A stretch of DNA of 64,000 nucleotides from an uncultured Acidimicrobiia bacterium (lineage in GTDB: Bacteria; Actinomycetota; Acidimicrobiia; Acidimicrobiales; AC-14): the NCBI GenBank assembly GCA_963836205.1, contig CAWIIV010000006.1, positions 192,001 to 256,000 on the forward strand, in the 5' to 3' direction. Shown here piece after piece: positions 260 through 29,494 of the stretch. Every line of letters starts with the position of its first letter. Position 1 is the stretch's first letter. Position numbers and translations under genes: made by a program. Under the pieces are notes generated by a model, which was not told the origin of the DNA, did no database searches, and saw only the letters and a program-made list of their open reading frames with translations.

Positions 260-1690
260 GGGTCACGTCCACGGACGTGGTGTATGACCACCACCACGTC
301 AACCTCGGGGACTTGTTTACCCCACCTTGGCCAGGTCGGTGTCGTTGGTCGTGTCATCGAGCCCTCCGTCGATGACGATCATTCGGGCCTTGGCCAGCAG
401 CTCGGGGGACATGTAGCGCCGGGCGACGGCCCACTCGTCGTTCTGCTCGGCCAGCACTGCCCCCACGAGGCGGATCACGGCGGCCCGGTTGGGGAAGATG
501 CCGACCACGTCGGTGCGCCGGCGCAGCTCCTTGTTGAGCCGCTCCTGGGGGTTGTTGGACCAGATCTGGCGCCAGTGCTCCTTGGGGAAGGTGGTGAAGG
601 CCAACAGGTCCGCCCGGGCGTCGATGAGCATCCCGGCGGCCTCGGGGTACTTGGCCACCAGCTGTTCCACCACCCGGGCGTGCTGAGCGACGACCTGGGT
701 GGCATCGGGCTGCTCGAAGATGGTGCGCACCCCCGTGGCCACCATGGTCTGGGCCGAGCGGGGCACCTTGGAGAGCAGGTTGCGCACGAAGTGGGTCCGG
801 CAGCGCTGCCAGGTGGCGCCCGGCAGCACCCCCGCGATGGCGGCCTTGAGGCCCTCGTGGGCGTCGGAGACGACGAGGCACACCCCCGACAGGCCCCGGG
901 CCACCAGTCCCCGCAGGAACGTCGTCCAGCCTGCTCCCGTCTCGGTGGTGAACACGTCCATGCCCAGGATCTCCCGGTGCCCGTCGGCGTTGACGCCGCA
1001 GGCCACGGCGCAGGCGATGTTGACGATGCGGCCCTCCTCCCGCACCTTCTGGGTCAGCGCGTCGATGGCCACGTAGGCGTAGGGCCCGGCGTCGAGGGGC
1101 CGGGAGCGGAAGGCGTCGACGGCGGCGTCGAGGCTGCGGGCCATCTCCGAGACCTGGGACTTGGAGATCCCGTCGATGCCCATGGACTGCACCAGGGCGT
1201 CCACCCGCCGGGTCGACACGCCGGCCACGTAGGCCTCGGCCACCACCGCCACCAGGGCCTCTCCGCCCGCCGGCGGGGCTCGAGCAGCCAGTCGGGGAAG
1301 TAGCTGCCCGAGCGCAGCTTGGGCACGGCCAACTCGATGGTGCCGGCCCGGGTGTCGAAGCCACGGCCGCGGTAGCCGTTGCGGGAGTTCACCCGCTCCG
1401 GGCTGCGCTCGCCCCAGGCCGCGCCGCAGGCGTTGTCGGCCTCGGCCGACATGAGCTGCTCGGCGAAGACCTTGACCATGTCGCGGATGACGTCGTTGCC
1501 GCCCTCGCCGTCGATGTGCTTGCGCAGCCAGGCGAGTGCGCTAAAGGTGTCAGGGACCACCGTGTTCCTCCTCAGTTGGTTGCTTGGTCTCTTCCTTCTG
1601 AGGTTGACGCGGTGGTCGTCGCGTCGGGGGGATGGTCAGGCCGTCAGGCCCTCAGCGCCGACTCGTACACCACGTCTGTGGACGCAACTC
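260..1690 (-). mobile_element. IS256-family insertion sequence
   Basis: Terminal IRs GGGTCACGTCCACGGACGTGGTGTATGA and (rc) GAGTTGCGTCCACAGACGTGGTGTACGA. Flanking direct repeat AAAGCAG at 253-259 and 1691-1697. Confidence 0.92.
317..1560 (-). CDS. IS256-family transposase (one frameshift near 1258)
   Basis: Motifs NSRNGYR, TRAGTIELAVPKLRSGSYFP, AYVAGVSTRRV, SDAHEGL, WQRCRTH, IWSNNPQERLNKELRRRTDVVGIFPN. Confidence 0.93.
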
Positions 1691-2080: not shown

Positions 2081-2179
2081 AGAAAAAATCGGGAGGCCCG
2101 CCATGCGAGCCTCCCGATCGTACACAGGCGTTCGGGGCCGATTCTTCGTCTCCGAGCGACCGTCGCTTCTTAGCAAGGT
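2081..2179 (-). ncRNA. Candidate ~100-nt sRNA whose 5' end is antisense to the adjacent tRNA anticodon arm
   Basis: -10 TAGACT (2192-2187) lies 7 nt before ACCTTGCTAAGAAGC. Internal hairpin AGCGA-CGG-TCGCT. Ends in an intrinsic terminator. Confidence 0.55.
2083..2118 (-). terminator. Intrinsic terminator
   Basis: ATCGGGAGGC...GCCTCCCGAT stem followed by a T-tract on the minus strand. Confidence 0.8.
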
Positions 2180-2205
2180 GGGACTAAGTCTAGCGTCAGC
2201 GGTGT

Positions 2206-2233
2206 CAAGTGTGTCGCCTTTGGCGACAACTTG
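2206..2233. other. Hairpin/inverted repeat between the tRNA-like gene and the sRNA
   Basis: CAAGT-G-TGTCGCC-TTT-GGCGACA-ACTTG. Confidence 0.65.
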
Positions 2234-2238
2234 GTTCG

Positions 2239-2310
2239 AGGCCGGGATGGGATTCGAACCCACGTGCGCCTCCTTGCTAAGAAGCTACCTAGCCACTCGG
2301 TCACCCGGCC
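2239..2310 (-). tRNA. Atypical tRNA: Cys-like body, U73, 8-nt anticodon loop UUAGCAAG, no encoded CCA
   Basis: GGCCGGG TG ACCG AGTGGCT AGGT A GCTTC TTAGCAAG GAGGC GCAC GTGGG TTCGAAT CCCAT CCCGGCC T. Perfect 7-bp acceptor stem and canonical T-loop. Confidence 0.85.
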
Positions 2311-2321
2311 TTCCGGCGGAC

Positions 2322-2330
2322 AGGGTACCA
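2322..2330 (-). promoter_or_regulatory. Extended -10 promoter for the tRNA-like gene
   Basis: TG-G-TACCCT, 11 nt upstream of the tRNA 5' end. Confidence 0.6.
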
Positions 2331-2640
2331 CCGCTCTCTCTCTGGAAGAACAGCCGTGTAATTCCGGGCGCCACGACCGCCGAGATCCTGTCGGTATGAG
2401 CAGCTCGACGGCGGGCTCGCTGCTGTCGTAGGTCGTGGATACCCTCAGCCCCAACTATCGGCCAGGCGAAGAGAAGCCTTGACCTGGCACGTGTCGAGCT
2501 GCGGGGCTCGGGACGATGGAGGGCGAGATACCGGGACCCGGACGGCCGCGAGCGACCGAGGACCTTCGATCAAAAGGCGGATGCCGAGAGATTCCTGACC
2601 GGTCTGGCCTGACTCCGAGGACCTCACGAGGCGCTCAATC

Positions 2641-4098
2641 GAGGTTGTCCCGGTCGTCGTAGAAGTTTGAGGTGGCGGTCCCCCGCCTGAGACCTGCCGG
2701 ATGGTAGGTGTCGGGCGACCGCCAAGTCACTCGACCAGCAAGGGGACCGCCAGTGAAGAAGAACTATCAGACCAAGGCCGCGCACGCGGCGACCGCCGAG
2801 CTCGCCCTGCCCGACACCGTGAGCCTGGCCATGGCCGAGCTGGCCGAGACAGTGCGCGAGGGCCTTCTCGCCTTGGCCGTCGGGGCTGGGCTGCAGGTCA
2901 TGCACGTGATGATGCAGGAGAGCGTCACCGCCGCCTGCGGGCCCAAGGGCGTCCATGATCCCGATCGAACCGCCGTCCGCCACGGAACCGAGGACGGCTC
3001 GGTGACCCTCGGCGGGCGGCGGTTGCCGGTGCAGCGGCCGCGCATGCGCAGCGCGGACGGAACCGCCGAGGTGGCGGTGCCGGCCTACGACCTGTTCGCC
3101 TCCACCGAGCTGCTCGATTCGATGGCGCTGGAGCGCATGATGGCCAAGCTGTCGACTCGGCGGTACTCGGCCGGACTCGAGCCGGTCGGCACCGGGGTCG
3201 AGGCAGCAGCTCGATCGAAGTCGAAGTCGGCGGTCAGCCGGCGGTTCGTGACCGCCACCGAACGGCCCTGGCCACCATGTTGGCCGCCGACCTGTCGGGC
3301 CTCGACCTGGTGGCGCTGATGATCGACGGCGTGCACTTCGCGGACCACGTCTGCGTGGTGGCACTGGGGATCGGCATCGACGGGACGAAGCACCCGCTCG
3401 GGGTGGTGGAGGGCGACACCGAGAACGCCACCATCGTCAAGGACCTCCTCACCGGCCTTCGGGATCGGGGCCTGGACACCACCAGGCCCATCCTGTGCGT
3501 GCTCGACGGGGCAAAGGCGCTGGTGGCGGCGGTCAAGGCGGTGTTCGACCACCCGGTCGTGGCTCGTTGCCAGCTCCACAAGATCCGCAATGTCGAGTCG
3601 CGACTGCCCAAGGACATGGCGGCCACGGTGGCCCGCAAGATGCGAGCGGCCTACCACGACGCTGACGCGTTGGCCGCCGAGGCGACACTCGAAGCCCTGG
3701 CCCGGGATCTGGACAAGGGCCACCCCGGTGCCGCTGGCAGCCTGCGGGAGGGCCTGGCCGAGACGCTCACCGTCAGCCGCCTCGGGGTGCCGCCGACGCT
3801 GGCCCGAACGCTGCGCTCGACCAACGCCATCGAGTCGATGATCGAGATCTGCCGGGATCACTCGACCAACGTGAAGCGCTGGCGGGACGGGACGATGGCG
3901 CTGCGCTGGTGTGCGGCGGGCATGGTGGAGGCGGCCAAGCAGTTCCGCCGGGTGAACGGATTTCTCCACCTGCCCGCCCTCCGGACCGCCCTTGACGCTC
4001 ACGTCACGAAGGTTGTCGCACCCCCGTGCGAGGATGGGGAAGTAGCCGCCTGATCATCGGGGCCGCCACCGAAGTTCCACGGAACTCGGGACATCCTC
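2641..4098 (+). mobile_element. Second, distinct IS256-family element
   Basis: IRs GAGGTTGTCCCG and (rc) GAGGATGTCCCG. Flanks CGCTCAATC (2632-2640) and CGCTCTATC (4099-4107), a 9-bp repeat with 1 mismatch. Confidence 0.88.
2753..4053 (+). CDS. IS256-family transposase (frameshift near 3265)
   Basis: Motifs RHGTEDGSVTLGGRRLPV, LMIDGVHF, VLDGAKAL, RCQLHKIRNV, LRSTNAIES. Confidence 0.9.
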
Positions 4099-6233: not shown

Positions 6234-8288
6234 GTGAAGAGCTTCTCCCCTGCCCAGATCCGAAACGTCGCCCTCGTCGGCCACGGCGGAGCGGGCAAGA
6301 CCACTCTGACCGAGGCCCTGCTGTTCTCCGCCGGCGCCATCAGCCGCCAGGGACGGGTGGAGGACGGCAACACCACCACCGACTTCGACCCGGAGGAGGT
6401 CAAGCGTGGCATCTCCCTGGCCCTCTCCCTCGCCCCCTTCGAGTTCGAGGGCCACAAGATCAACCTTCTCGACTCCCCCGGCTACGCCGACTTCGTCACC
6501 GACCTCGAGACCGCGCTCGACGTGGCCGACCTGGCCGTGATCGTGGTCAGCGGGGTGGAGGGCGTGGAGGTGCAGACCGAGGCCGCCTGGCGCCTGGCCG
6601 CCGAGCGGGGCCTGCCCCGCATGTTCTTCGTCAACAAGCTCGACCGGGAGCGGGCCAGCTTCGACCGCACCCTCGACCAGCTCCGCGACATGTTCGGGGC
6701 CGGCGTCGCCCCCCTGGAGCTGCCGATCGGCGAGGAGAGCGGGTTCCGGGGCATCGCCGACCTGCTCACCGACAGCGCCGTGTTCTACGAGGGCGGCAAG
6801 GCGGTCAAGGGCGAGATCCCCGACGACATGACCGAGCGCGAGCACGAGGTGCGCGACAACCTGGTCGAGGGCATCGTGGTGGCCGACGACGACCTCACCG
6901 AGCGCTACCTGGAGGGTGAGACCATCAGCCCCGCCGAGCTGGAGAAGGCCCTGGCCAAGGGGGTGGCCGAGGCCAGCGTGTTCCCCGTCACCTGCGGTTC
7001 CGCCACCAAGCTCATCGGGATCGACCGTTTGGCCCAGCTCATCTGCGAGGTCGGCCCGTCGCCCCTCGACCGCCCGCCGGTGACGGTGGAGGCGGGCGAC
7101 GGCACCGCCGAGGTCACCCCCGATCCGGGCAGCCAGCCCCTCGCGCTCGTCTACCGCACCATCGCCGACCCTTACGTGGGGAAGGTCTCCTTCCTCAAGG
7201 TGCTGTCGGGCACGATCCGGCCCGACGTGGTGCTCACCAATCCCCGCACCCACTCCGACGAACGCCTGCACGGGCTGTTCACCATGCGGGGCAAAGAGCA
7301 GGTGCAGGTGCAGTACCTGCCCGCCGGCGACCTGGGGGCGGTATCGAAGCTGTCCGACACCTCCACCGGCGACACCCTGGCGCCCAAGGGCACCCCCGTC
7401 ACCGTGCCGGCGCCCGAGGCCCCCGTCCCGGTGCTGTCGGTCGCCATCCTGCCCAAGTCCAAGGGGGACGAGGACAAGCTCATGACGGGCCTCCACCGCC
7501 TCCAGGACGAGGACCGGTCGCTCTTCGTCCGCCGCGACGACGAGACCCACCAGACGATCCTTTCGGGGATGGGTGAGACCCACCTGTCCATCGTCACCGA
7601 ACGACTGGCCCGCAAGTTCGGGGTGGAGGTCCAGACGGAGGACGTGAAGGTCGCCTACCGGGAGACGATCACCGGCAGCGCCGAGGCCGAGGGCAAGTAC
7701 AAGAAGCAGACGGGCGGCCACGGGCAGTTCGGGGTGGCGTTCCTCAGGGTCGAGCCCCTCGAGCGAGGCGGCGGCTTCGAGTTCGTCGACAAGATCGTGG
7801 GCGGGGCCATCCCCCGCCAGTTCATCCCCGCGGTCGAGAAGGGCGTGGCCGAGACCATGGTGACGGCCGGCGTGTTCGGCTACCCGGTGGTCGACGTGCG
7901 GGTCACCGTGTTCGACGGCAAGTTCCACCCCGTCGACTCGTCGGAGATGAGCTTCAGGATGGCGGGTTCGCTCGGGTTCAAGGAAGCCATGGCCAAGGCC
8001 GGGCCGGTGCTGCTCGAGCCCATCTCGGTGCTGGAGGTGACGGTCCCCACCCAGTACCAGGGCGACGTCATGGGCGACCTCAACTCCCGCCGGGGACGGG
8101 TGCAGGGCACCGAGGCCGTCGGCAACGGGGAGCAGACGATCACCGCCCAGGTCCCGACGTCGGAGGTCCTGCGCTACGCCATCGACCTCCGCTCGATCAC
8201 CGGCGGCCGGGGACGCTTCACCGTCGCCCACGACCACTACGACCCGCTGCCCCCCCACCTCGTCGACAAGGTCGTCAAGCCCGGGTGA
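6234..8288 (+). CDS. fusA2: Elongation factor G-like protein (EF-G II)
   Basis: GHGGAGKT, RGISL, DSPG, NKLD, GMGETHL, KKQTGGHGQF, HPVDSSE. Confidence 0.93.
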   Translation: MKSFSPAQIRNVALVGHGGAGKTTLTEALLFSAGAISRQGRVEDGNTTTDFDPEEVKRGISLALSLAPFEFEGHKINLLDSPGYADFVTDLETALDVADLAVIVVSGVEGVEVQTEAAWRLAAERGLPRMFFVNKLDRERASFDRTLDQLRDMFGAGVAPLELPIGEESGFRGIADLLTDSAVFYEGGKAVKGEIPDDMTEREHEVRDNLVEGIVVADDDLTERYLEGETISPAELEKALAKGVAEASVFPVTCGSATKLIGIDRLAQLICEVGPSPLDRPPVTVEAGDGTAEVTPDPGSQPLALVYRTIADPYVGKVSFLKVLSGTIRPDVVLTNPRTHSDERLHGLFTMRGKEQVQVQYLPAGDLGAVSKLSDTSTGDTLAPKGTPVTVPAPEAPVPVLSVAILPKSKGDEDKLMTGLHRLQDEDRSLFVRRDDETHQTILSGMGETHLSIVTERLARKFGVEVQTEDVKVAYRETITGSAEAEGKYKKQTGGHGQFGVAFLRVEPLERGGGFEFVDKIVGGAIPRQFIPAVEKGVAETMVTAGVFGYPVVDVRVTVFDGKFHPVDSSEMSFRMAGSLGFKEAMAKAGPVLLEPISVLEVTVPTQYQGDVMGDLNSRRGRVQGTEAVGNGEQTITAQVPTSEVLRYAIDLRSITGGRGRFTVAHDHYDPLPPHLVDKVVKPG

Positions 8289-8830
8289 GCGACGCCGATC
8301 CCGATTGCGAGGAGTGCGGGTTCGTCTACGGAGACCTGGCCGCAGCCGACGCCCCCGCCGCCATCCGGGCCTTCGCCCGCCGCTACCGGGCGCCCCTCAC
8401 CCGCTTCCTGCCCGGGGAGGACGGCGACGCCCTGGTCCGCCGGCGGCCGGCGCCCGAGACGTGGTCGGCGCTGGAGTACGCGGCCCACGTGCGCGACGTG
8501 TTCGGCAACTACGACCGGTGGGTGCGCCTGACGTTGGTCGAGGACCGGCCGCTGCTGGAGGGGCCCGGCCCCGACGAGCTGGCCGCCGACGGGAACTACA
8601 ACGCCGACGACCCGGCGGCGGTGGCCGACGCCCTGGCCACCAACGCCGAGCGCCTGGCCGCCACCGTCGAGGCCGTCCCCGACGACGGCTGGGACCGCGT
8701 CGGCCTCCGCCGGGACGAGGAGCGCAGCGTGCTGTTCACCGCCCGCCGGGCCGTCCACGAGGGCAACCACCACCTGCTCGACATCGGGCGGGGCCTGCGA
8801 GCGGTGCGGGAGCAGGCCAAGCAGGCCTGA
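8285..8830 (+). CDS. DinB-family protein
   Basis: CEECGF N-terminus, WSALEYAAHVRD, HEGNHHLLD. Confidence 0.85.
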   Translation: MSDADPDCEECGFVYGDLAAADAPAAIRAFARRYRAPLTRFLPGEDGDALVRRRPAPETWSALEYAAHVRDVFGNYDRWVRLTLVEDRPLLEGPGPDELAADGNYNADDPAAVADALATNAERLAATVEAVPDDGWDRVGLRRDEERSVLFTARRAVHEGNHHLLDIGRGLRAVREQAKQA

Positions 8831-28372: not shown

Positions 28373-29494
28373 TCAGTCGCCGGTGACCACCACGCCCAGC
28401 ATGGCGGCGGCCTGGCTGATCCCGTGGCCGGCAGCGGCGGCCTCGTCGACGGCGGCGATGGCCCGGGGGAAGTCGAGGTCGTCGTCGATCGCCTCGCGCA
28501 CCGCGTCGAGGGCGTCGTCGCCCGTGCCTGTCGCCCGCCACCGGGCCAGGCGTTCGGTGGCGGCCGGGAGCAGGCCGTCGTGCCACGACCACGGCGCCCG
28601 GTAGGAGTGGTCGAGGATGGCCAGTCGCACCGCCATCGGGTCCCACTCCCTGACCAGCTCGCTCACGAACACCAGGTTGCCCAGCGACTTCGACATCTTG
28701 ACCCCGTCGAGCTCCACCATCGGGGCGTGCAACCACCGGCGGACGAACCGTTCGCCGATGGCGGCCTCCGACTGGGCCGCCTCGCACTCGTGGTGGGGGT
28801 AGATGAGGTCGCTGCCCCCGCCGTGGAGGTCGATGCTCGTGCCCAGCTCCCGCAGGGCCAGGGCCGAGCACTCGATGTGCCAGCCGGGCCGTCCCGGTCC
28901 CCACTGCGACGGCCACGAGGGCTCGTCCGGCGCCGACGGCTGCCAGAGGACGAAGTCGAGGGGGTCTCGCTTCACCGGATCGTCGACGTTCCCGCCCCGC
29001 TCGGCCGACAGCTTCAGCATCTCGTCCCGGTCGAGGTGGCTGACCTGGCCGAAGCGGTCGAACGAGGCCACGTCGAAGTAGACCGCCCCGCCCGCCGGGT
29101 AGGCGTGGCCCCGGTCGAGAACCATGCCGATGAAGCCGAGGATGTCGTGGATGGCGGAGGTGGCCCGAGGCTCGCTGAAGGCGGGCAGCATGCCCAGGGC
29201 CTTCATGTCGGCGTCGAACCTGGCCACCTCCCGGGCGGCCAGGGCGAGGTAGTCGATCCCCAGCTCGCGGGCCTTGCGCAGCAGGTCGTCGTCGACGTCG
29301 GTGACGTTGCGCACGCACAGGGTGCGGTGGCCGATGTCGCGCAGGCGGCGCTGGAGGACGTCGTAGAGCAGGTAGGTGGCGGCGTGGCCGACGTGGGTGG
29401 CGTCGTACGGCGTGATCCCGCACGTGTACATGGTGACGACCGGGCCGGGCGAGAAGTCCACCACCTCCCGGCGAGCGGTGTCGTAGAACCGCAC
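28373..29494 (-). CDS. mshC: L-cysteine:GlcN-Ins ligase (CysRS-like)
   Basis: MYTCGITPYDATHVGH, GRPGWHIECS, KMSKSLGN; no anticodon-binding domain. Confidence 0.82.
   Translation of the reverse strand: MRFYDTARREVVDFSPGPVVTMYTCGITPYDATHVGHAATYLLYDVLQRRLRDIGHRTLCVRNVTDVDDDLLRKARELGIDYLALAAREVARFDADMKALGMLPAFSEPRATSAIHDILGFIGMVLDRGHAYPAGGAVYFDVASFDRFGQVSHLDRDEMLKLSAERGGNVDDPVKRDPLDFVLWQPSAPDEPSWPSQWGPGRPGWHIECSALALRELGTSIDLHGGGSDLIYPHHECEAAQSEAAIGERFVRRWLHAPMVELDGVKMSKSLGNLVFVSELVREWDPMAVRLAILDHSYRAPWSWHDGLLPAATERLARWRATGTGDDALDAVREAIDDDLDFPRAIAAVDEAAAAGHGISQAAAMLGVVVTGD

What the first reader, a model, noticed from the sequence alone, without database searches (positions are those of the whole stretch)
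2239..2330. tRNA-Cys-like gene with an expanded 8-nt anticodon loop
The best-pairing fold gives stem GCTTC/GAGGC, loop UUAGCAAG, a 4-nt variable region, U73 and a Cys-type D-arm. That could read the quadruplet UGCU and cause a +1 frameshift at Cys codons. The 7-nt register instead gives anticodon AGC (Ala) on a body without G3:U70, which would miscode. Acceptor and T stems are intact and an extended -10 is present, so it does not look like a decaying att remnant. The extra base is unlikely to be a sequencing error because the antisense copy at 2165-2178 has the same loop sequence.
Basis: partly seen in the sequence, partly recalled or inferred. Interest (0 to 1): 0.75.

Follow-up and report, generated by a model that had tools for sequence, protein, structure and literature searches.

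The report
Orphan Cys-type tRNA with enlarged anticodon loop
A well-formed tRNA gene built like a cysteine tRNA but with one extra base in its anticodon loop sits in a scrap of a dead mobile element; it is most likely a leftover, and a role as a four-base decoder is unproven.

Summary
A tRNA gene lies on the minus strand at 2239-2310. ARAGORN reads a four-base anticodon "agca" and Rfam tRNA scores 45.1 bits. The stem, the loop UUAGCAAG, the 4-nt variable loop, U73, the TGn-TACCCT motif and the inverted copy at 2165-2178 are all present.

The body is Cys-type. In this genome only the canonical tRNA-Cys shares a 3-bp D stem, a 4-nt variable loop and U73. The only 2 metagenome contigs carrying its D-arm/T-arm signature hold tRNA-Cys(GCA).

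The register is ambiguous. ARAGORN and nearest-neighbour energy favour the 8-nt loop (-28.4 against -24.3 kcal/mol). Infernal aligns a 7-nt loop with anticodon AGC.

The context argues against an adapted decoder:
- The gene sits in a unique 950-bp island between two multicopy IS elements.
- It lies 167 nt from a truncated tyrosine-integrase gene whose relatives often sit beside tRNA-Cys.
- No tRNA was found at the syntenic interval in 5 same-genus genomes, and no homologue in 40 relatives or 400 phylum genomes.
- It scores lower than all 19 other tRNAs sampled from this genome.

The most likely reading is a mobile-element-derived relic. Four-base decoding remains possible but untested.

The parts
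2239..2310 (-). tRNA gene with a Cys-type body, ending at discriminator U73 (2239). ARAGORN adds one more base (2238). No CCA is encoded.
   Evidence: ARAGORN; Rfam RF00005 at 45.1 bits; architecture table
2268..2285 (-). Anticodon arm. In the 8-nt register it is stem GCUUC/GAGGC with loop UUAGCAAG (loop at 2273-2280). In the 7-nt register it is loop UUAGCAA, anticodon AGC, 4 bp plus a G27.G43 mismatch, and a 5-nt variable loop.
   Evidence: ARAGORN draws the 8-nt loop. Infernal aligns the 7-nt loop. Cloverleaf energies are -28.4 against -24.3 kcal/mol.
2322..2330 (-). TGG-TACCCT, an extended-minus-10-like motif ending 11 nt upstream of the tRNA 5' end.
   Evidence: Read from the sequence. It is not reported by the promoter scan. 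Roughly 4% chance expectation in a 40-nt window (my estimate).
2162..2181 (+). Inverted copy of the anticodon arm: 14 nt exact at 2165-2178, 20 nt at 90%. On the tRNA's own strand it is an antisense segment in the 3' trailer. Weaker similarity to the leader and the tRNA 5' half extends back to about 2114.
   Evidence: Extended local alignment scores 39 against 21.2 +/- 4.1 in shuffles, maximum 42.
2212..2228 (-). Small hairpin UGUCGCC-AAA-GGCGACA in the trailer, beginning 10 nt after the discriminator.
   Evidence: Sequence; present in the minimum-free-energy fold of the precursor
2087..2119 (-). Intrinsic-terminator-like hairpin (15 pairs) followed by a U run. It would end a minus-strand transcript that starts at the tRNA.
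   Evidence: Terminator scan
2478..2612 (+). N-terminal 44 codons of a tyrosine integrase (…RWRARYRDPDGRERPRTFDQKADAERFL…) followed by a stop. No in-frame ATG/GTG/TTG is evident. It is cut off just before IS no. 2.
   Evidence: Translation; phrog_1 integrase E 1.3e-4; 45-68% identical to the N-termini of integrases in 34 other genomes, of which 4 of 4 tested carry PF00589
1632..2057 (+). Small ORF convergent with the tRNA, possibly a NYN-domain (PIN-like nuclease) protein. Its first ~19 codons lie inside the end of IS no. 1.
   Evidence: No Pfam, NCBIfam or PHROG hit. The protein atlas puts 29 of 30 feature hits in NYN (PF01936) clusters at score 0.92. This is a lead only.
261..1689 (-). IS no. 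1, with an IS256/Mutator-type transposase in two overlapping frames. The genome holds 5 copies at 99.86% identity or more.
   Evidence: blastn against the genome; translations. The family name rests on my reading of the sequence and its likeness to IS no. 2. Pfam was run only on a wrong frame of this IS.
2640..4098 (+). IS no. 2, with a Mutator-family transposase (PF00872) in two overlapping frames. The genome holds 4 copies at 99.7% identity or more.

Best explanation
This is a horizontally acquired tRNA gene of the cysteine type whose anticodon loop carries one extra base. The usual C-U-GCA-A-A has become U-U-A-GCA-A-G. It is stranded in a 950-bp remnant of an integrative element.

The remnant keeps only three things: the first 44 codons of a tyrosine integrase from a group that often sits beside tRNA-Cys, the tRNA, and a small convergent ORF. 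The rest was removed or replaced by two currently active IS elements.

The 20-nt inverted copy of the anticodon arm, 87 nt away, marks a past duplication or recombination event at the anticodon arm. It also shows that the 8-nt loop is a real, older feature of the DNA.

My reading is that the gene is a leftover of that element, either cargo or att-associated tRNA, and that this genome does not need it. A canonical tRNA-Cys(GCA) and one CysRS are present elsewhere. If the gene is transcribed and charged at all, it would behave like a classical insertion-type +1 frameshift-suppressor allele of tRNA-Cys and not like an evolved decoder.

Shown: the tRNA shape, the Cys-type architecture, the extra base in both copies, the mobile-element context and the lack of homologues. 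Inferred: the origin from the element, the lack of selection, and any decoding behaviour.
For: (1) Context.
- The island 1690-2639 is unique in the genome and is bracketed by IS copies that are 99.7-100% identical to 3 or 4 other copies each.
- G+C is 0.60-0.66 over 1501-2850 against 0.714 for the genome.
- The integrase fragment is at 2478-2609.

(2) Relatives of the integrase.
- 35 of 151 genomes of the order, counting this one, have a match.
- Of the 29 other loci examined, 10 have a tRNA within 1.5 kb, and 4 of those 10 are tRNA-Cys(GCA). Three of these (L277, L286, L292) lie 162-175 nt upstream of the int gene.
- PF00589 is present in 4 of 4 integrases tested.

(3) Not a conserved chromosomal tRNA.
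- There are 0 tRNAs in the 12-kb stretches fetched on that side of the same acyltransferase gene in 5 of 5 same-genus genomes. In 3 of the 5 the genes on both flanks are seen.
- No full-length match in 40 relatives.
- 0 of 400 other genomes of the phylum match at E<=1e-6.
- 0 hits for a loop-plus-arms pattern in metagenome and viral contigs.
- The island has no blastn match in plasmids or phages.

(4) Redundancy. A canonical tRNA-Cys(GCA) lies at C8:131363-131435. The genome has one CysRS plus an MshC paralogue and no extra synthetase.

(5) Quality. The gene scores 45.1 bits against 53.3-72.9 bits for 19 other tRNAs of the same genome, with the canonical Cys at 64.4.

(6) Foreign origin. The best paralogue in the genome matches only 54 of 73 bases.

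(7) E. coli Cys-scaffold four-base tRNAs were among six that gave too little protein to characterise (PMC9094753, passages read).
Against: The cloverleaf is flawless and all invariant tertiary positions are kept. A neutral relic should eventually lose these. However, the flanking IS copies are nearly identical, so the decay of the element may be recent.

A plausible TGn -10 motif and a downstream terminator frame the gene.

The tRNA lies on the 5' side of the integrase gene and in the opposite orientation. None of the 29 related integrase loci shows this layout, so a simple attL/attR origin does not fit. No direct repeat of the tRNA 3' part was found in the genome.

The perfectly kept 14-mer inside an otherwise diverged inverted copy could mean selection on that sequence.

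The absence of homologues rests on BLAST and exact patterns, on incomplete genomes, and on searches that scored few candidates per genome.
Confidence: 0.55

Rival explanations
1. Functional expanded-loop tRNA-Cys. CysRS charges it through U73 and the GCA triplet that keeps its normal position relative to the 3' side of the loop. The extra A 5' of GCA then promotes +1 frameshifting or four-base reading at UGCU. This would serve a gene of the former element or act as a general suppressor.
For: ARAGORN calls an 8-nt loop with anticodon agca. The 8-nt cloverleaf is 4.1 kcal/mol more stable than the 7-nt one. The Cys-type architecture with a 4-nt variable loop exists only in this register and matches true tRNA-Cys(GCA) genes with an identical D arm. 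The cloverleaf is intact, there is a TGn -10-like motif and a terminator, and the loop sequence is duplicated in the inverted copy. Laboratory suppressors with an extra loop base are known: SufB2 and SufJ (abstracts seen).
Against: No target is known. The element's genes are gone, and both flanking IS transposases are split by -1 shifts, not +1 (frames taken). There is no conservation anywhere. The gene has the lowest Rfam score of the genome's sampled tRNAs. E. coli qtRNA-Cys performed too poorly to characterise, and those authors expect natural four-base tRNAs to be very rare (PMC9094753). A constitutive +1 shifter at Cys codons would be costly.
Confidence: 0.12
2. Seven-base-loop tRNA with anticodon AGC on a non-alanine body. 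This would be a 'dual-identity' tRNA that reads the alanine codon GCU as another amino acid, as tRNAProA does in Streptomyces.
For: Infernal's alignment to the Rfam tRNA model uses this register: loop UUAGCAA, a G27.G43 mismatch and one inserted base in the variable loop. A tRNA with the same loop, U73 and a similar D arm exists in two Acidobacteriota genomes, where the 7-nt register pairs perfectly. tRNAProA, with AGC on a tRNA-Pro body, is an experimentally supported precedent in Actinobacteria (PMC10404621, passages read).
Against: This register leaves only 4 pairs, one of them G.U, and is 4.1 kcal/mol less stable. It destroys the Cys-like 4-nt variable loop. With AGC the tRNA would lack both the alanine identity pair (it has C3:G70, read) and the GCA anticodon that CysRS reads (established knowledge, recalled), so no synthetase is expected to charge it well. 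No extra CysRS-family synthetase is present; other synthetases were not searched. It lacks the tRNAProX marks C1:G72 and A33.
Confidence: 0.1
3. The locus is not a translation adaptor. It is a tRNA-like RNA or DNA structure whose anticodon arm and its inverted copy act together. They could be the core site of the neighbouring recombinase, or a precursor RNA in which the 3' trailer masks the anticodon arm.
For: The 14-nt exact, 20-nt 90% inverted repeat is unique among the genome's 55 tRNA calls. The 237-nt minus-strand transcript folds to -119.1 kcal/mol, z = -6.4 against shuffles, with the tRNA 5' half paired to the trailer. A tyrosine integrase gene is adjacent.
Against: The z-score is largely produced by the repeat itself and by the terminator hairpin. 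During transcription the tRNA would fold before the trailer appears. The integrase is truncated, so any recombination function is dead. No second example exists: the 14-nt inverted match near the Acidobacteriota tRNA is not significant by gapped scoring, 29 against 23.3 +/- 4.3.
Confidence: 0.1
4. Assembly or sequencing artefact. The true gene has a normal 7-nt loop.
For: The genome looks like a draft: 25 contigs, 88.6% complete. Raw reads could not be examined because no sequencing run was listed.
Against: The extra base is not in a homopolymer run. The same 14-mer, including the whole 8-nt loop, is present a second time in inverted orientation. Removing one base would still not give the canonical Cys loop.
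Confidence: 0.03

Closest known systems
Insertion-type +1 frameshift-suppressor tRNAs of Salmonella and E. coli (sufD, SufB2, SufJ and relatives)
   Same: An otherwise normal tRNA with one extra nucleotide in the anticodon loop. The 8-nt loop here keeps the cognate triplet (GCA) next to a purine at position 37.
   Different: Those are laboratory-selected alleles of chromosomal Gly, Pro or Thr tRNA genes with demonstrated suppression (abstracts of 10.1101/2020.12.31.424971 and PMC4238358 seen). This one is a wild, orphan, Cys-type gene in mobile-element debris with no known target and no functional data.
Yeast mitochondrial tRNA-Thr(UAG) with an 8-nt anticodon loop
   Same: A natural tRNA with an 8-membered anticodon loop. 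It shows that such loops can be used in translation.
   Different: It decodes triplets (CUN as Thr), is an essential part of an organelle code and derives from tRNA-His (PMC3113583 abstract; PMC7609411 passage). The tRNA here is bacterial, redundant and unconserved.
tRNAProX family (tRNAProA, ProT, ProN) of Streptomyces
   Same: If the 7-nt register applies: an actinobacterial tRNA with the alanine anticodon AGC on a body of another identity. Such tRNAs are annotated by anticodon as tRNA-Ala.
   Different: tRNAProX has C1:G72, A33 and A34 and comes with a dedicated ProRSx (PMC10404621). This tRNA has G1:C72, U33 and a Cys-type body, and no dedicated Cys-family synthetase was found.
tRNA genes as attachment sites of tyrosine-integrase elements (integrative elements and prophages of Actinobacteria)
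   Same: A tRNA within 170 nt of a tyrosine-integrase gene. Relatives of this integrase lie next to tRNA-Cys(GCA).
   Different: In the related loci the tRNA's 3' end faces the element: same orientation 162-175 nt upstream of int, or at the int 3' end. Here the tRNA's 5' end faces int and the orientation is opposite. No direct repeat of the tRNA 3' part was found. The tRNA is not the host's own tRNA-Cys.

Membership tests
tRNA (Rfam RF00005) | Score at or above the curated gathering threshold, with the full cloverleaf | tested here: met
   45.1 bits against a threshold of 29, model positions 1-71 of 71. ARAGORN also calls it. It scores lower than all 19 other tRNAs sampled from the genome, which range 53.3-72.9 bits.
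tRNA-Cys | Discriminator U73 | tested here: met
   T at 2239. In this genome U73 is also found in the Gly and Thr tRNAs.
tRNA-Cys | Body architecture: 3-bp D stem with G13/A22 unpaired, and a 4-nt variable loop | tested here: met
   This holds in the 8-nt register only. Among the parsable ARAGORN calls of the genome, only the canonical tRNA-Cys shares 'D3 + V4 + U73'. The only 2 metagenome contigs with the same D-arm/T-arm signature carry tRNA-Cys(gca).
tRNA-Cys | Anticodon GCA at positions 34-36 of a 7-nt loop | tested here: not met
   The loop is UUAGCAAG (8 nt), or UUAGCAA with AGC at positions 34-36.
tRNA-Cys | Aminoacylation by CysRS | not testable with these tools
   One CysRS (C22) and one MshC-like paralogue are encoded. 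No biochemical data exist.
+1 frameshift-suppressor / four-base-decoding tRNA | Extra nucleotide in the anticodon loop | tested here: inconclusive
   ARAGORN and folding energy favour an 8-nt loop. Infernal aligns a 7-nt loop with a mismatched first stem pair.
+1 frameshift-suppressor / four-base-decoding tRNA | A demonstrated shift of reading frame, or a gene that needs it | not testable with these tools
   No reporter or expression data; no sequencing run was listed. The two neighbouring split transposase genes need -1, not +1 (frames). A genome-wide screen for +1 sites at UGCU was not done.
tRNA-Ala | G3:U70 identity pair | tested here: not met
   The acceptor stem GGCCGGG/CCCGGCC gives C3:G70.
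tRNAProX (dual-identity tRNA-Pro) | C1:G72, A33 and A34, with a neighbouring ProRSx | tested here: not met
   This tRNA has G1:C72 and U33. The defining features are taken from PMC10404621. A ProRS paralogue was not searched for.
Integrase attachment-site tRNA (attL/attR) | An integrase gene on the 3' side of the tRNA, and a direct repeat of the tRNA 3' part at the other end of the element | tested here: not met
   The integrase fragment lies on the 5' side in opposite orientation. No direct repeat of 16 nt or more of the tRNA occurs elsewhere in the genome; the longest is 15 nt, inside GC-rich sequence on another contig that looks coding. The element is truncated by IS no. 2, so its far end may be lost.

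The most novel reading that the evidence does not exclude
This would be a naturally occurring, mobile-element-borne tRNA-Cys derivative with an 8-membered anticodon loop (an extra A 5' of GCA) that is expressed from its own promoter, charged with cysteine, and shifts ribosomes by +1 at UGCU/UGCN. The 14-nt perfect antisense segment in its own 3' trailer would act as a built-in mask of the anticodon arm until the precursor is processed. That would be a wild bacterial four-base decoder or programmed frameshift suppressor carried as element cargo.
Probability: 0.08. Interest if true: 0.8.

Novelty: new member of a known kind. Interest (0 to 1): 0.3.

Why it matters
Natural bacterial tRNAs with enlarged anticodon loops are hardly documented outside laboratory suppressor mutants and organelles. 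A wild, expressed Cys-type example would bear on how reading-frame maintenance is relaxed in nature and on the design of four-base codon systems.

As it stands, the value is more modest.
- It is a clean example of how an aberrant tRNA gene can look fully 'healthy' while sitting in mobile-element debris.
- It shows that the two standard tRNA finders disagree on its register. One reads 'agca'. The other aligns a register in which the anticodon is AGC, and annotation by anticodon would then name it tRNA-Ala.

Tried and rejected
(1) Derivation from tRNA-Ala(UGC). The best BLAST hits in relatives were tRNA-Ala(TGC), 80% over positions 16-65. I rejected this because the acceptor stem and D arm differ, G3:U70 is absent, and those loci are not syntenic with the window.

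(2) Recent duplication of a resident tRNA. Rejected: the best paralogue matches 54 of 73 bases.

(3) A wide family sharing the loop.
Almost all were noise, namely a Prochlorococcus coding region and a viral acceptor/T-arm minihelix site.
- At default ARAGORN settings, 232 of 239 matched windows had no tRNA call over the match.
- A specific pattern (D arm + loop + T arm) gave 0 hits in metagenome and viral contigs.
- Two exact end patterns gave 0 hits in viral contigs.

(4) Finding the intact parent element. blastn of the island against plasmids and phages gave no match.

(5) Read-level and RNA evidence. No sequencing run was listed for the island and no RNA holder was listed.

(6) Defining the att core of the related tRNA-Cys-targeting elements. 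No attR repeat was found in the 13.5-kb and 14-kb stretches available.

(7) A dedicated synthetase. The second CysRS-family gene, in the window at 28376-29494, scores best as MshC.

(8) The 14-nt inverted match near the Acidobacteriota tRNA is not significant by gapped alignment.

(10) Literature. Full-text term searches turned up no description of a natural bacterial tRNA-Cys with an 8-nt loop. PMC13092985, on 4-bp anticodon stems in 42,109 genomes, had none of my search terms in its main text. Its supplements and those of PMC10404621 could not be opened and may list comparable tRNAs.

Full report
**What is there**

ARAGORN finds one tRNA in the window, at 2238-2310 on the minus strand. It cannot name the isotype because it reads a four-base anticodon 'agca'. 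Its drawing shows:
- a 7-bp acceptor stem GGCCGGG/CCCGGCC;
- U8;
- a 3-bp D stem with G13 and A22 unpaired;
- a D loop containing GG;
- an anticodon stem GCUUC/GAGGC (G-C, C-G, U.G, U-A, C-G);
- an 8-nt loop UUAGCAAG;
- a 4-nt variable loop GCAC;
- the T arm GUGGG-UUCGAAU-CCCAU;
- U at the discriminator position.

No CCA is encoded. Rfam's tRNA model matches 2239-2310 at 45.1 bits (threshold 29) and is the only Rfam hit in the 64 kb. That includes the TGG-TACCCT motif at 2330-2322, although the tool's own sigma-70 scan reports no promoter there. It also includes the inverted copy of the loop. An intrinsic-terminator-like hairpin with a U run lies on the same strand at 2119-2087.

**Which register**

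Two foldings compete.
- The 8-nt-loop cloverleaf evaluates to -28.4 kcal/mol.
- The 7-nt alternative (loop UUAGCAA, anticodon AGC, G27.G43 mismatch, 5-nt variable loop) evaluates to -24.3 kcal/mol.
- Free folding even extends the first helix to 7 pairs.
- Infernal's alignment to the generic Rfam model chooses the 7-nt loop and pays for a mismatch and a variable-loop insertion.

The programs disagree, and one sequence cannot settle the matter.

**Which kind of tRNA**

Under ARAGORN's register the combination '3-bp D stem, 4-nt variable loop, U73' occurs in only one other parsable tRNA call of this genome, the canonical tRNA-Cys(GCA) at C8:131363-131435.

I scanned 241 million metagenome records for the D-arm and T-arm signature while leaving the anticodon arm free. 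That gave 2 contigs. In both, the match is a tRNA-Cys(gca) inside a tRNA array, with an identical D arm and a 4-nt variable loop UUAC.

The body is therefore cysteine-type. The simplest description of the loop is the Cys loop with an extra A between U33 and G34, plus changes at positions 32 and 38. It is not an alanine tRNA, since it has C3:G70. It is not a tRNAProX member either, since it has G1:C72 and U33, against the features quoted in PMC10404621.

**Where it sits**

The genome is 4.05 Mb, 71.4% G+C, in 25 contigs.
- The tRNA lies in a 950-bp stretch (1690-2639) that is unique in the genome and has a G+C of about 0.60-0.66.
- On its left is a 1.43-kb IS (261-1689) with 4 further copies at 99.86% identity or more.
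- On its right is a 1.46-kb IS (2640-4098) with 3 further copies at 99.7% or more, encoding a Mutator-family transposase.
- Both transposases are split into two frames related by -1, so they do not call for a +1 suppressor (my arithmetic on the coordinates).

Apart from the tRNA, the island holds a small convergent ORF and an integrase fragment. For the ORF only the protein atlas suggests a family, NYN nuclease, and that is a lead only. At 2478-2609 lie the first 44 codons of a tyrosine integrase, followed by a stop and, 28 nt later, the IS.

Beyond the IS elements the genes are ordinary chromosomal ones: acyltransferase, EF-G paralogue, ECF sigma factor and transporters.

**Comparison with relatives**

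- In 5 same-genus genomes I fetched 12 kb on the corresponding side of the same acyltransferase gene. None of the 5 contains a tRNA. In 3 of them the genes on both sides of the interval are recognisable, and the interval content differs. This is a variable region.
- BLAST with the tRNA found no full-length match in 40 relatives of the genus, family and order. The best matches were tRNA-Ala(TGC) at 80% over 50 nt, at non-syntenic loci.
- None of 400 further genomes of the phylum matched at E<=1e-6, though only 2 candidates per genome were scored.
- These tallies include genomes flagged as unpublished: G008, G009, G015, G017, G021 and G023.

**Relatives of the integrase**

The integrase fragment finds relatives in 35 of 151 genomes of the order, counting this genome. 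Four of four that I tested carry PF00589.

Of the 29 other loci retrieved, 10 have a tRNA within 1.5 kb. Two of these, L299 and L300, come from unpublished genomes. Four of the 10 are tRNA-Cys(GCA). Three lie 162-175 nt upstream of int in the same orientation. One, in a same-genus genome, lies at the 3' end of int.

The remnant therefore belongs to a group of integrases that often use tRNA-Cys. In the window the Cys-type tRNA is at almost the same distance (167 nt) but inverted, a layout seen in 0 of those 29 loci.

**The inverted copy**

GCTTCTTAGCAAGG occurs at 2165-2178(+) and 2272-2285(-), against 0.01 matches expected with up to 2 mismatches. The arms extend to 20 nt at 90%.

No other tRNA call of the genome has an inverted copy longer than 11 nt within 300 nt.

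A gapped alignment suggests weaker similarity between 2114-2181 and the leader plus 5' half of the tRNA. It scores 39 against 21.2 +/- 4.1 in shuffles, whose maximum was 42, and most of the score comes from the 14-mer.

Because of the repeat, a transcript running from the tRNA to the terminator is predicted to pair the tRNA's 5' half with its own trailer (-119.1 kcal/mol, z = -6.4).

I take two things from this. The 8-nt loop sequence is genuine, since it exists twice. And the anticodon arm took part in a duplication or recombination event, as expected near a site-specific recombinase. Whether the repeat has a function of its own is open.

**Weighing**

For a working gene: the perfect cloverleaf, the conserved tertiary positions, a plausible -10 motif and a terminator.

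Against an adapted decoder:
- the gene is an orphan;
- it lies in the debris of a dead element between recently active IS copies;
- it is redundant with a normal tRNA-Cys;
- it has no dedicated synthetase, because the second CysRS-family gene, at 28376-29494, is MshC-like;
- it scores below all 19 other tRNAs sampled from the genome, 45.1 against 53.3-72.9 bits;
- it has no identifiable target.

Published work on E. coli found Cys-scaffold four-base tRNAs too inefficient to characterise, and its authors expect natural four-base tRNAs to be rare (PMC9094753, passages read). Enlarged loops can nevertheless function. Examples are the laboratory suppressors SufB2 and SufJ (abstracts) and the yeast mitochondrial tRNA-Thr with an 8-nt loop, which reads triplets.

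I put about 55% on a mobile-element relic without a dedicated role. I put about 12% on a working +1-shifting tRNA-Cys, 10% on an AGC-reading dual-identity tRNA, 10% on a non-translational role of the arm plus repeat, and 3% on an artefact. The remainder is unassigned.

**A possible distant parallel**

It returned one tRNA, in an Acidobacteriota MAG (L034), with the same loop letters, U73 and a similar D arm. In that tRNA the 7-nt register pairs perfectly.

- It scores 52 bits.
- It lies beside an IS1-like gene.
- It recurs at a syntenic locus in 1 of 60 relatives, with 71 of 73 bases identical. Both differences keep D-stem pairs.
- Compared with the window's tRNA, each register gains one compensatory pair and loses one pair, so the comparison does not decide the register.

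I cannot tell whether the two are related or a product of my search pattern.

**Limits**

- No read or RNA data were available.
- Supplements of the papers could not be opened.
- All absence statements mean 'not found in those searched'.

Noticed in passing
L034:4570-4642 (minus strand; = G440:C2:1700570-1700642) and L316:1501-1573 (G603): Two Acidobacteriota genomes (2 of 61 searched) share, at a syntenic locus next to an IS1-like/zinc-ribbon gene, a tRNA with anticodon loop UUAGCAA (anticodon AGC), U73, G3:C70 and a 3-bp Cys-like D stem. The two copies differ at 2 of 73 positions, and both changes preserve D-stem pairs. It could be a bacterial A34 'Ala-anticodon' tRNA of non-alanine identity.
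   Followed up: partly
window 261-1689 and 2640-4098: Two different IS256/Mutator-type insertion sequences are present in 5 and 4 nearly identical copies in the genome. In each, the transposase is split into two overlapping frames related by a -1 shift. I checked this only in the window's copies; the other copies are 99.7-100% identical. It could be programmed frameshifting or shared inactivation.
   Followed up: no
viral loci L141-L256 (for example L165, L170, L190): More than 100 IMG/VR contigs of about 55-60 kb carry a conserved site TTAGCAAGG…CCGGGGTTCGATTCCCCGGCTTGCT. It looks like an acceptor-stem plus T-arm minihelix (a tRNA 3'-half-like attachment or tRNA-like element), often preceded by repeated TTAGCAAG words.
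   Followed up: no
window 28376-29494 (minus strand): A CysRS-family gene that scores best as the mycothiol ligase MshC (412 bits, below NCBIfam's cut-off of 485). With the DinB/MDMPI-type protein at 8285-8827, this points to a mycothiol-using actinobacterium.
   Followed up: partly
G000 whole genome (ARAGORN output): About 15 of the 55 ARAGORN 'tRNA' calls are 83-100 nt long with irregular structures inside GC-rich, coding-like sequence. These are probably false positives. No tRNA-Ala(UGC), tRNA-Phe or tRNA-Glu(UUC) was found in this 88.6%-complete assembly.
   Followed up: no
L263 and L264 (metagenome contigs): Dense arrays of 8 and 14 tRNA genes in low-G+C sequence. The order Lys-Tyr-His-Cys-Gly-Gly-Leu-Arg is shared by both, which suggests a phage or a small-genome organism.
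   Followed up: no
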